A DNA stretch of 64,000 nt from Mizuhopecten yessoensis (lineage: Eukaryota): NCBI RefSeq assembly GCF_002113885.1, contig NW_018406841.1, positions 1 to 64,000 of the forward strand, given 5' to 3'. Numbering within the stretch: the stretch's first letter is position 1; each line of letters starts with the position of its first letter. Made by a program: the position numbers. Of this stretch, positions 54,001-57,000 are shown in pieces.

Positions 54001-57000
54001 AAGTAATATTAAGCTCACGAGTTCACATTACAAAGATATGTAATATGTATCTCATCAAATTGTTCAACTTTGGGGACGACATCTAATATTTGTATTGCAC
54101 TATATCTGCATCTGCAGATGCAACTATACTATCTATATGATACACTCATTGTGATTAGTGTTTTTTTTAAATTTATAGCAAATATTACCATTTAATTTTA
54201 AAATTCACAATTTTCATTCTTGATTACGAATATACATAAAATTCCACCGGATTATTTGCTACCCCAGATGTGTGTACTATGTATCACGTATTTTGTGACA
54301 ATATCACTTTTTCTTTTTAGCTTCGAAACAACTAAGTAGCGTTTCTTGTATGTTTATATAACACTGTTCCTTGGCAAATACACGTAAAAACAATAATATA
54401 GTGTTATATTTACATTTGCGCTGCAACCCACTATATAAAGATTACCAGCAGTAATCCATTTCATTTGGGTATGAAAGCAAAAACTCTTGTGACGTAGCAC
54501 GTGGTTTACATATCTCAAATATAGCAGTTGGCAGCTTACAGCCTCACGGAATAAACAATAATTATAAAATAATATAATATAGGCTTTATTTGTTCTTGAT
54601 AACATATTGAGCATGAAGCTCATCTTATATATGGTCAAGATACAGTATATGATATAATGTACAATATTTACAGCTTTAAGAAATATACATGTATAAGAAG
54701 AATTCATAAATCATTTCGAGTAAAATTGCTTTGCAGATCTCTTAAATTCTAAAAGAACAATTTCTAATATCACTCGGTAAAAGATTCCATGTAAGGGGTC
54801 CCTGATATCTAAAAGATTTTCCAAAAATGTTTGTCTTATGACATGGCAAGTAAAACACATTGGTAGATGATGATCTTGTAGTTCTACTCTGAACATCCGA
54901 CATATACGTAAAATCATTCAAATTTTGCGGAGCTAAATTATTAAGTATCTTGTACATAAAAACCACTTGATTGTATAACATTCTTTTGTGAAAAAAATAA
55001 ACATACCTGCTGTGAGACTTTGAAAATTCTTTTTCTTTCAACTACACTTATGGTATATCATACATTATATTGGTATTCCAAATATCTTTTATGTAATATT
55101 CTGCCGTATAAAAGGTCAGAATTTCGTGTAAGTCATACTGGCAATTTTACTATTTTATCAAAACCGTTATCATGGAACTGGGTCAAATGCAACTAAATAT
55201 TGATTATAGCGTGAACAATGAATTGTAACTCCAGGCCGATAGGAAGAAGCAACAACAGAAATTGATCGGATATCAGTTAAATCAAAACTAAAAGAAAAAT
55301 CAGAATCCCCCTAGAAAAATATCGATGGTAAATTTGATCGCCTTTGAGTTTCTATCTTGTCTTCGTGTATTGACGCTGTGGTGTGTTTCTTTTTCACTTG
55401 TTAACCCTAGCACTTCCATATTCCCAGATTTATGGTTTTGTAACAATGGTCATGGTACACTTGCTGCACCAAAGAAATTACAAACTTTATTTCTTGGTAT
55501 CAATATTAACAGTTGGAAATTACAGGTTCGTATTTCTGTCCACCATTCGCAACGTATACAGTAAAACCTAGATAAAATGCCACTTATTTCATTGGCCACC
55601 CCGTTTACTGCCAATATATTTCACACTTCCCTCAATCTATTGTCAAGCCCTTTTATAATGCCAATACTTCTCTGGAATAATGGTGGCATTATAACGAGGT
55701 TTTGCTGAACACCAACTTAAACAAATCTGTAGTACACGAAAGAAGTTAGGGCTGACTAAGAACCAAAGTGGTAATAATGTTCAAATATGTACAAGTTTAT
55801 ATATATTCTAAATACATTTTTTAACGCAAATTACAATAAAGTCACAAATTGTTTGTAATATTTTTCAGCAAACACACATTGCCAATTTAAATATTTATGT
55901 TCATTCTAAAATTTCGTAAGGAGTAACAAGCATTATCCATACAATCCAATCAACAATGTTGAAATATTTTCATTGTATTACTACGCTTCCCTTTACGTAA
56001 TCTGACACGTCGTGTCTGTCCTTATGTAGAAATGTTCGTTAGGTAAAGTTATTCATAATCAGTGTATGCATCATTTACAATAATTGATTCCACCTTTAGA
56101 TTTAACATTATTATCTTTACGTATTTCTTAGAAGAAATTGTGTCCGATGTTATTCCATAAAGCAATACACTATTTACTTAAGAGATTCAAATACTTACTA
56201 TGAACATGACATATCACCAAAACAGTTGTCTCATTTTTTGTGGTCTAATGAAACATTGTGCAGAAGCAATACACAAAACTTCACTTAGACCATTCAGATC
56301 CTATATATATATAAACCATGATATAAAACAGAGACCACAATGGAATTTCGTTTGTCTGATGAAAGGATTTGGGGTGAACTTCTGGTGTACAGAATATGAA
56401 TATGTGGTATTTATGATTCCATCGCTGTATTGACGAACATCTGTCCAGTAGAGGTGTCGGCGTACAGGTTGGGAGGTTCCACCCGGGAGAGATCTAGACT
56501 GTCATAATGGACAGGGTTTGGTGACGTCATGACGGCTTCAGTATACTCTGGCTGTTTCACGAGTGCAAGTCTTCTGCAAATATGATTTTCAAGCTTATTC
56601 CGGTTCTTGATATCGTAATGTTTTACCTCGGTGGGTAAAAAGTCTTCAAAAGGCAATGTAAATATCAAAATGTATATAGGAATTTGATCTCAAATCAGTT
56701 CAAATACAGAACTTGATAATGAAAATGATACGAAATTATTTAATTATTTTCGTCAATGTGTAGTTAATTTCAAAACAGATACCATTGAGAAAAAGTGTCA
56801 TAAATAGATCAAGTATCCATTCTAAATGGTGCTATGAAGGATAGCCTGTTAACGTCAAAGGAAATATGTGATAAGTAACATAATTCTGTACCATGCTACT
56901 TACTTTCTATAAAGGATAACATGGACTACCACGGTTACAGTAACCAGTAGTGAGGTAACTACTAGAGGGACGACTACAGCACCTGGAAAATATACATATT

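What the first reader, a model, noticed from the sequence alone, without database searches (positions are those of the whole stretch)
56411..56573. Stepwise loss of signalling tyrosine motifs across paralogs, including a natural Y-to-F change
B has YDSL/YEEM/YVNT. D has YDSL/YADT/YVNT (second ITAM-half and YxxM lost). F has YDSL/YADT/FVNT (Grb2-type Tyr changed TAC to TTC). D and F tails otherwise differ only by R-to-G three residues upstream. VHYDSL is invariant in all three, so F may be a purely inhibitory version (inference).
Basis: partly seen in the sequence, partly recalled or inferred. Interest (0 to 1): 0.68.

Follow-up and report, generated by a model that had tools for sequence, protein, structure and literature searches.

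The report
Receptor paralog lost one signalling tyrosine
One young copy in a cluster of membrane-receptor-like genes has changed a conserved signalling tyrosine to phenylalanine, but its sister copy is a dead gene and the change may be simple decay.

Summary
On the minus strand, 56411-56573 is the last exon (with stop) of gene F. It encodes VHYDSL, YADT and FVNT. Copy D (37912-38074) has YVNT, and B (9891-10053) has YEEM and YVNT. D and F differ at two bases only: CGA to GGA and TAC to TTC. B shows that F carries the derived states.

The tail is a real conserved module. Between B and D, synonymous sites are nearly saturated while amino acids are kept (omega about 0.18, p = 7.6e-6).

The "stepwise" story is weak:
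- No tail has a canonical ITAM (0 of 3).
- D, the supposed intermediate, is a pseudogene, with a stop at codon 4 of exon 1 and a 7-bp frameshift in the ectodomain exon.
- D and F show no protein-level constraint (pN/pS 1.4).
- F keeps two further tyrosines.
- F's exons 1-3 lie beyond the window.
- F's intron 4 holds a 6-kb retroelement.

My best reading is a true substitution that removes a Grb2-type YxN site. It more likely reflects relaxed constraint than a designed inhibitory-only receptor.

Motif toggling of this kind is already known in CEACAM, LITR and Botryllus FcoR families.

The parts
56411..56573 (-). Gene F, last exon (cytoplasmic tail plus TAA stop). Encodes VHYDSL, YADT and FVNT.
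   Evidence: Acceptor tttgcag. 161 of 163 bases identical to D.
56435..56437 (-). Codon TTC (Phe) where D and B have TAC (Tyr). This is the derived loss of the YxN tyrosine.
56444..56446 (-). Codon GGA (Gly) where D has CGA (Arg). Derived in F, three residues before the Y/F site.
56495..56512 (-). VHYDSL, an ITIM-pattern motif, invariant in B, D and F.
56904..56982 (-). Gene F transmembrane exon (79 nt, phase 1 to 2).
63582..63857 (-). Gene F Ser/Thr-rich stalk exon (276 nt). Open frame, splice sites as in D.
57568..63546 (+). About 6-kb insertion in F intron 4, absent from D. It is a retroelement with reverse transcriptase, 112-nt inverted terminal repeats and GC about 53%.
37912..38074 (-). 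Gene D tail exon (VHYDSL, YADT, YVNT).
38271..38349 (-). Gene D transmembrane exon.
38977..39252 (-). Gene D stalk exon.
40642..41009 (-). Gene D ectodomain exon. A 7-bp deletion against C and E shifts the frame, gives a stop and removes the fifth conserved Cys.
43765..43816 (-). Gene D exon 1 (signal peptide) with TGA at codon 4.
9891..10053 (-). Gene B tail exon (VHYDSL, YEEM, YVNT; TGA stop).
10374..10452 (-). Gene B transmembrane exon.
13270..13626 (-). Gene B ectodomain exon (six-Cys domain).
47266..47637 (+). Gene E ectodomain exon. Intact, 70% identical to the readable part of D.
50496..50994 (+). Gene E tail exon. It is a different tail type, with 3.3 tandem 108-nt repeats, each with D(I/M)YAQ(V/I).
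21491..21865 (-). Gene C ectodomain exon. The frame is open, but C's exon 1 is 7 nt short and no TM or tail exon was found.

Best explanation
The finding is the last exon of gene F. F belongs to a local family of at least six type-I membrane-receptor-like genes, A to F. Each gene has a signal-peptide exon, a six-cysteine ectodomain exon of about 123 residues with no known family, a Ser/Thr-rich stalk exon, a 79-nt transmembrane exon and a tail exon.

The B/D/F tail type has 53 residues and three conserved tyrosine blocks: VHYDSL (ITIM pattern), Yxxx ten residues further on, and STRQxYVNTAM (YxN pattern).

Inferred mechanism: a Src-type kinase phosphorylates these tyrosines. Phospho-VHYDSL then docks an SHP-type SH2 phosphatase. 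Phospho-YVNT docks a Grb2/Drk-type adaptor. Phospho-YEEM, in B only, could dock a PI3K p85-type subunit. The intact tail would thus be a mixed inhibitory and adaptor platform.

F is a young copy of D. An A-to-T change (TAC to TTC), together with CGA to GGA 10 nt upstream, has removed the phosphorylatable residue of the YxN block. That branch cannot signal in F.

The D/F pair is under relaxed constraint and D is already dead. The substitution is therefore most simply a neutral or nearly neutral change in a decaying or fast-evolving duplicate, not a selected step toward an inhibitory-only receptor.

Shown here: the sequences, the gene structure, the long-term constraint on the tail, the lesions in D and the polarity of the change. 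Inferred only: phosphorylation, the SH2 partners and the functional state of F.
For: - Tail sequences and codons.
- Exon structure with matching phases and splice sites in B, D, E and F.
- Six Cys in the same columns in 4 of 4 full-length ectodomain exons.
- Long-term purifying selection on the tail: B-D pS 0.68, pN 0.25, omega about 0.18, p = 7.6e-6. The motif-bearing 114 bp are the only nucleotide match between the B and D loci.
- D is a pseudogene: MTL* in exon 1; 7-bp deletion and stop in exon 3.
- Relaxed constraint in D/F: pN/pS 1.40 over 507 coding nt. In TM plus tail, 5 non-synonymous to 1 synonymous, P = 0.019 under omega 0.18.
- F carries at least as many derived coding changes as D: 5, 2 and 2 ambiguous.
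- F intron 4 holds a 6-kb retroelement.
- A random hit on a Tyr codon is not rare: 0.17 for one of two hits in any Tyr codon, 0.044 for this Tyr.
Against: - F's three visible exons are open, with splice sites intact.
- The 230 nt around the tail exon (56358-56587) differ from D at only these two bases, against 9.5% overall. The binomial P is 3e-8 and this is the lowest of 1660 sliding windows.
- The only two changes in the best-kept stretch therefore both alter the conserved third block. By my own arithmetic this has a chance of about 2% if they were two independent events and about 14% if one event. The figure is post hoc.
- This pattern would also fit selection for the F state after a gene conversion.
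- With omega taken as raw pN/pS (0.376), the TM plus tail excess is not significant (P = 0.12).
- No phosphorylation or binding evidence of any kind exists.
- The organism is unknown, so the presence of SHP- or Grb2-type partners is assumed from their general conservation in animals (recalled knowledge).
Confidence: 0.5

Rival explanations
1. One reading: F is a functional, selected inhibitory-leaning variant. After D and F were homogenised over the tail exon, two substitutions removed the adaptor (YxN) site while keeping VHYDSL. This would give a receptor that recruits only phosphatase.
For: - Both F-specific changes fall in the conserved third block, inside a 230-nt stretch otherwise identical to D.
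- VHYDSL and the whole middle block are untouched.
- F's visible exons and splice sites are intact.
- Natural single-residue toggling of tyrosine motifs between alleles or paralogs is described in Botryllus FcoR3/4 (PMC12582321, passages) and CEACAM1 (PMC2832619, passages).
Against: - D, the sister, is dead, and the pair shows pN/pS 1.4.
- F keeps the YTEA and YADT tyrosines, so it is not ITIM-only.
- With only two substitutions, no test can show selection.
- F's upstream exons are unseen, and a 6-kb retroelement sits in its intron.
Confidence: 0.2
2. The G and F states were copied into F in one step, by a short gene conversion from a third family member outside the window. F's tail would then report that other gene's history, not a step from D.
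For: - The two differences are 10 nt apart, and both are transversions.
- They sit inside a tract that otherwise looks recently homogenised.
- The family is mosaic in ectodomain versus tail grouping, which shows exchange between members.
- Gene conversion is common in such families (PMC7042247, abstract start in listings).
Against: No donor exists in the window. A 33-nt probe with up to 3 mismatches finds only F and D (2 of 2 matches). Two random sites this close occur by chance 12% of the time.
Confidence: 0.1
3. The tyrosine blocks serve mainly as YxxPhi sorting or endocytosis signals (AP-2 type) rather than SH2 docking sites. YDSL and YEEM fit this pattern and YVNT does not, so the Y-to-F change would touch something else or nothing.
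For: - YDSL (all three tails) and YEEM (B) match Yxx[LIMFV].
- The CEACAM literature treats Yxx(L/M/V/I/F) as an endocytic ITAM-like motif (PMC2832619, passages).
Against: - YxxPhi arises in 53-67% of shuffled tails, so the match says little.
- It does not explain the strong conservation of STRQxYVNTAM between B and D at near-saturated synonymous divergence.
Confidence: 0.1
4. Base-call or assembly error at 56436, or D and F are divergent haplotypes wrongly laid in tandem.
For: - The window has assembly blemishes: an N gap at 31731-32173 flanked by a perfect 268-nt duplicate, and single Ns at 382 and 57567.
- Reads could not be consulted.
Against: - Two separate transversions in non-repetitive sequence are unlikely as errors.
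- D and F differ by 9.5% with many indels and a 6-kb insertion.
- They are separated by gene E on the other strand.
Confidence: 0.05

Closest known systems
ITIM receptors that also carry a Grb2-type YxN site: catfish IpLITR 1.1b, BTLA, CD22
   Same: All are single-pass receptors whose short tail joins an ITIM with a YxN tyrosine, giving mixed inhibitory and adaptor signalling. IpLITR 1.1b is described this way, with Y463 as the YxN site (PMC4810170, passages). BTLA has two tyrosines N-terminal to the ITIM that may bind GRB2 (10.1101/669812, passages). For CD22 I saw only the title and abstract start (PMC5302901, listing).
   Different: Those receptors have Ig ectodomains and an ITSM, and their YxN lies before the ITIM. 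Here the ectodomain matches no Pfam family, there is no ITSM, and the YxN is the last block. The BTLA preprint could not detect GRB2 binding in cells, so a motif match does not prove binding.
CEACAM1-related paired-receptor families of mammals
   Same: Both are tandem multigene families with many pseudogenes. Both show exon-wise exchange, gene conversion and point changes that switch tail motifs: ITSM to ITIM in catarrhine primates, and YxN present in marsupial members only (PMC2832619, passages; PMC7042247, abstract start).
   Different: CEACAMs are vertebrate IgSF genes with tails encoded by three or four exons. Here the tail is one 163-nt exon and the genome is not vertebrate-like (CpG o/e 0.87).
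Botryllus schlosseri fester co-receptors (FcoR)
   Same: Both are invertebrate receptor families whose tails carry ITIMs and other tyrosine cores. FcoR alleles differ by single residues that make or break a motif, such as LAYAIV versus FAYAIV. FcoR 'core-2' [A/D]VYxxV motifs come in pairs 29-33 residues apart (PMC12582321, passages). Gene E's tail has D(I/M)YAQ(V/I) motifs 30 residues apart.
   Different: FcoR ectodomains are Ig-like plus Sushi. Here 0 of 5 ectodomain peptides hit any Pfam family at E up to 10. The FcoR sequences are in supplements I could not open, so homology is untested.
Hydractinia Alr family
   Same: Both are clustered genes and pseudogenes with one domain per exon, a single-pass transmembrane segment and highly diverse tails, some with ITAM or ITIM. 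The Alr ectodomains also mostly escape Pfam (PMC9546547, passages).
   Different: Alr proteins have one to three Ig-like domains that lack the usual cysteines, plus an Fn3-like spacer. Here there is a single six-Cys domain followed by a Ser/Thr-rich stalk.

Membership tests
ITIM-bearing inhibitory receptor (functional class) | Cytoplasmic [S/I/V/L]xYxx[I/V/L] motif | tested here: met
   VHYDSL is present once in each of 3 of 3 tails. By chance alone it arises in 11-18% of shuffled tails.
ITIM-bearing inhibitory receptor (functional class) | Type-I single-pass membrane protein with the motif on the cytoplasmic side | tested here: met
   Signal-peptide exon in B and E. Hydrophobic 79-nt TM exon followed by YRK/R. 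For F, only the stalk, TM and tail exons are visible.
ITIM-bearing inhibitory receptor (functional class) | Tyrosine phosphorylation and recruitment of SHP-1/SHP-2/SHIP-type SH2 phosphatases | not testable with these tools
   No expression or binding data are available, and the organism and its SH2 proteins are unknown.
ITAM | Yxx[L/I]-x(6-12)-Yxx[L/I] | tested here: not met
   0 matches in B, D and F. B's second half is YEEM.
Grb2-type SH2 docking site | YxN sequence pattern | tested here: met
   YVNT is present in B and D. F reads FVNT, so 2 of 3 tails carry it. Binding itself is not testable.
PI3K p85-type SH2 docking site | YxxM sequence pattern | tested here: met
   B only (YEEM), so 1 of 3 tails. 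Binding is not testable.
Botryllus FcoR | [quoted passage not shown] | tested here: not met
   0 Pfam families for 5 of 5 ectodomain peptides at E up to 10, and none for the stalk exons except weak low-complexity hits.
Hydractinia Alr | One to three tandem Ig-like domains followed by an Fn3-like spacer with six invariant cysteines shared between them | tested here: not met
   The architecture here is one six-Cys domain exon plus a Ser/Thr-rich stalk exon. Sequence homology was not tested, since no Alr sequence was at hand.
DIRS-like retrotransposon (the insertion in F intron 4) | Reverse transcriptase of the LTR-element class | tested here: met
   Pfam RVT_1 at 1e-18. The best PDB matches are foamy-virus and Ty3 reverse transcriptases.
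DIRS-like retrotransposon (the insertion in F intron 4) | Tyrosine recombinase instead of integrase | tested here: inconclusive
   No Pfam or PDB match for the candidate ORFs. The resemblance is recalled only. Inverted terminal repeats are present.

The most novel reading that the evidence does not exclude
The window shows part of an undescribed invertebrate receptor system. A new six-cysteine ectodomain is combined by exon exchange with at least two tail types: a B/D/F type with an ITIM pattern plus YxN, and an E type with tandemly amplified D-I-Y-A-Q-V units. In this reading F is a live member. Its adaptor-docking tyrosine was specifically removed after a recent gene conversion, giving a natural signalling-branch knockout that tunes the balance of inhibitory and activating output.
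Probability: 0.15. Interest if true: 0.55.

Novelty: new member of a known kind. Interest (0 to 1): 0.3.

Why it matters
If F is expressed, it is a natural Tyr-to-Phe mutant of one docking site in an otherwise identical tail. That is the same experiment that signalling laboratories do by hand, and it would show how such families tune their output.

The evidence does not reach that far. The sister copy is a pseudogene, the pair evolves as if unconstrained, and F's upstream half is unseen.

The more solid value lies in two points:
- The 38-residue motif-bearing end of the tail is the best conserved part of these genes. It is therefore a real functional module.
- The family has an ectodomain that no Pfam model or solved-structure sequence recognises.

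Tried and rejected
The one job accepted failed. No model and no fold search were obtained, so the fold stays unknown. My impression that it resembles a CUB-like or Ig-like sandwich is memory only and is not claimed.
- The protein Atlas did not complete.
The remaining collections (prokaryote genomes, phages, plasmids, E. coli) cannot hold this locus and were not used. The taxon, family size and a family-wide Y/F survey are therefore unchecked.
- Pfam found nothing for the ectodomain exons, tails or stalks, and nothing for 10 other ORFs.
- PDB sequence searches of the ectodomain profile and the tail profile gave only chance-level hits (E 0.16 and 0.25).
- I tested whether E's repeated tail unit is homologous to the VMTSxxxVHYDSL block. 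It is not shown: 99 of 2000 shuffles reached the score for B, and 1446 of 2000 for D.
- No TM or tail exon was found for gene C.
- A literature search for the string HYDSL returned only hydrogenase papers.
- ARAGORN found no tRNA.
- The bacterial promoter and terminator scan has no bearing on a eukaryotic locus.
- Complex prediction was not used. No binding claim is made, and no SH2 partner sequence of this organism is at hand.
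Full report
WHAT IS AT THE COORDINATES. Bases 56411-56573, read on the minus strand, follow a good acceptor (tttgcag). They encode RLALVKQPEYTEAVMTSPNPVHYDSLDLSRVEPPNLYADTSTGQMFVNTAMES and then TAA. A six-frame search finds HYDSL three times in the window, all on the minus strand. These are the last exons of three genes: B (9891-10053), D (37912-38074) and F. All three exons are 163 nt long. B reads VHYDSL, YEEM, YVNT. D reads VHYDSL, YADT, YVNT. F reads VHYDSL, YADT, FVNT. D and F differ at two bases of 163: CGA to GGA and TAC to TTC. B also has TAC. Every statement of fact in the finding is therefore correct.

THE GENES. The window holds a family of receptor-like genes. 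I followed them exon by exon.
- In the C/D/E type, a 52-nt signal-peptide exon is followed by a 48-nt exon.
- Next comes an ectodomain exon of about 370 nt in phase 1-1.
- Then come a Ser/Thr-rich stalk exon, a 79-nt transmembrane exon and the tail exon.
- B, and A as far as it is visible, go from their own signal exon straight to the ectodomain exon.
- The ectodomain has six cysteines in the same alignment columns in 4 of 4 full-length copies.
- It matches no Pfam family (0 of 5 peptides at E up to 10). It matches no solved-structure sequence (best E 0.16).
- B and E look intact.
- E lies on the plus strand and has a quite different tail of about 165 residues, with 3.3 tandem 108-nt repeats.
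- By ectodomain, C, D and E group together (60-70% identity) and A with B (37%). By tail, B groups with D and F. The family is therefore mosaic.

ARE THE MOTIFS MORE THAN CHANCE? Taken one at a time they are not. An ITIM pattern arises in 11-18% of shuffled tails, YxN in 16-21% and YxxM in 16-21% (20,000 shuffles each). No tail has a canonical ITAM (0 of 3). The conservation, however, is strong. Between B and D the tail exon has 25.0 synonymous differences over 37.0 sites and 31.0 non-synonymous over 122.0 sites. This gives omega of about 0.18 and Fisher p = 7.6e-6. Across the 5.5-kb B and D loci, the only detectable nucleotide similarity is 114 bp at the motif-bearing end of this exon. Thirty of 53 tail columns are invariant, in three blocks: VMTS, VHYDSLDxSRVEPPNxY and STxQxxVNTAM. 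The tail is a real functional module and tyrosine 46 is part of it.

THE SUPPOSED INTERMEDIATE IS DEAD. D's exon 1 reads MTL*, where E has an open signal peptide. D's ectodomain exon lacks 7 bp present in C and E. This shifts the frame, removes the fifth conserved cysteine and meets a stop. C also looks defective. Its exon 1 is 7 nt short, which puts the ATG out of frame, and no TM or tail exon was found. F's exons 1-3 lie beyond base 64000, so they cannot be seen. Its intron 4 holds an insertion of about 6 kb that is absent from D. This is a retroelement on the opposite strand, with reverse transcriptase and 112-nt inverted terminal repeats.

D AGAINST F. The two copies belong to a duplication with a spacing of about 18.5 kb.
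- Over 1889 aligned bases they differ at 9.5%.
- Over the three shared exons I counted 20.2 non-synonymous and 4.8 synonymous differences. This gives pN/pS 1.40, not different from 1 (p = 0.64). The counts were made per exon and summed as numbers.
- TM plus tail show 5 non-synonymous to 1 synonymous. P is 0.019 if omega were 0.18, but 0.12 if omega is taken as raw pN/pS, 0.376.
- With B or A as outgroup, 5 coding changes are derived in F, 2 in D and 2 are ambiguous. Both tail changes are derived in F.
- F is thus no better conserved than a pseudogene.

Against this reading, the 230 nt from 56358 to 56587 are identical except for these two bases. This stretch covers the tail exon, 14 nt of intron and 53 nt of 3' flank. 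The binomial P is 3e-8 and it is the lowest of 1660 windows. That points to a recent gene conversion, or to strong constraint, followed by two changes in F that both hit the third block. A random non-synonymous hit lands in some Tyr codon with probability 0.17 for two hits, and in this Tyr with 0.044. Two sites within 10 nt arise 12% of the time. None of these figures is decisive.

MECHANISM. I commit to the docking-platform reading. Phosphorylated VHYDSL would recruit an SHP-type phosphatase. Phosphorylated YVNT would recruit a Grb2/Drk-type adaptor. YEEM, in B only, would recruit a p85-type subunit. Phe at position 46 closes the adaptor branch in F. This rests on motif consensus rules from the vertebrate and fly literature. 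The rules are partly recalled and partly seen in passages of PMC4810170, 10.1101/669812 and PMC2832619. Nothing here shows phosphorylation or binding. The BTLA preprint itself failed to detect GRB2 on a tail with such a site. I put 0.5 on 'real substitution, loss of one docking site, relaxed constraint'. I put 0.2 on selected specialisation, 0.1 on import from an unseen paralog, 0.1 on sorting signals as the main role and 0.05 on error.

COMPARISON WITH WHAT IS KNOWN. Tails that join an ITIM with YxN are known in catfish IpLITR 1.1b, BTLA and CD22. Families that switch motifs by point changes, exchange exons and carry many pseudogenes are known in CEACAMs, Botryllus FcoR and Hydractinia Alr. 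The present genes do not meet the ectodomain definitions of FcoR or Alr, but they work like them in outline. For each paper I saw passages or listing abstracts only.

LIMITS.
- I do not take the contig for human. GC is 34% and CpG observed/expected is 0.87. The Rfam scan found one weak tRNA-like hit and no other family.
- All protein searches were made exon by exon. The joined, spliced model was left out.
- The N positions (382, 31731-32173, 57567) were left as they are.
- Homologue searches and the Atlas were closed or unavailable, and structure prediction never ran to completion.
- The taxon, the fold, the size of the family and the Y/F state elsewhere are therefore open.

VERDICT. The stepwise series and the 'purely inhibitory' label are not supported by the evidence at hand. 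This is a new member of a known kind, of modest interest.

Noticed in passing
50496-50994 (+), repeats 50599-50957: Gene E's tail is built of 3.3 tandem 108-nt repeats. Each encodes TPxGD(I/M)YAQ(V/I)E, with 30 residues between successive motifs. This resembles the paired 'core-2' tyrosine motifs reported for Botryllus FcoR tails. It is a resemblance only.
   Followed up: partly
57568-63546: A retroelement of about 6 kb sits in F's intron 4. Its GC is about 53% in a 34% GC locus. It has an LTR-class reverse transcriptase, 112-nt inverted terminal repeats (57941-58052 and 63366-63477) and ORFs broken over several frames. It is flanked by an imperfect direct repeat of about 12 nt. A single N sits at its edge (57567).
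   Followed up: partly
24402-24446 and 21491-21865 (-): Gene C has an open ectodomain exon. Its signal-peptide exon is 7 nt shorter than in D and E, which puts the ATG out of frame, and no TM or tail exon was found downstream. It is probably a second pseudogene.
   Followed up: partly
31463-31730 and 32278-32545: A perfect 268-nt duplicate flanks the N gap at 31731-32173. It looks like an assembly artefact at a gap edge.
   Followed up: no
3962-4795 and 27187-27957: A second segmental duplication (91-97% identity) includes a copy of the A-type signal-peptide exon near 27190-27336. It lies upstream of gene C, with no matching ectodomain exon seen.
   Followed up: no
33123-33194 (+); similar 57165-57287: There is a weak tRNA-like Rfam hit (30.6 bits against a threshold of 29). 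ARAGORN does not call it, and a related copy lies in F's intron. It may be a tRNA-derived SINE.
   Followed up: no
51719-51969 and 19290-19709: A (TTGTATG)n microsatellite of about 36 units lies between E and F. A 69-nt repeat in six copies lies in C's intron 3.
   Followed up: no
56574-56903 versus 38075-38270: The intron between the TM and tail exons is 330 nt in F and 196 nt in D. The alignment shows 134 gapped columns.
   Followed up: no
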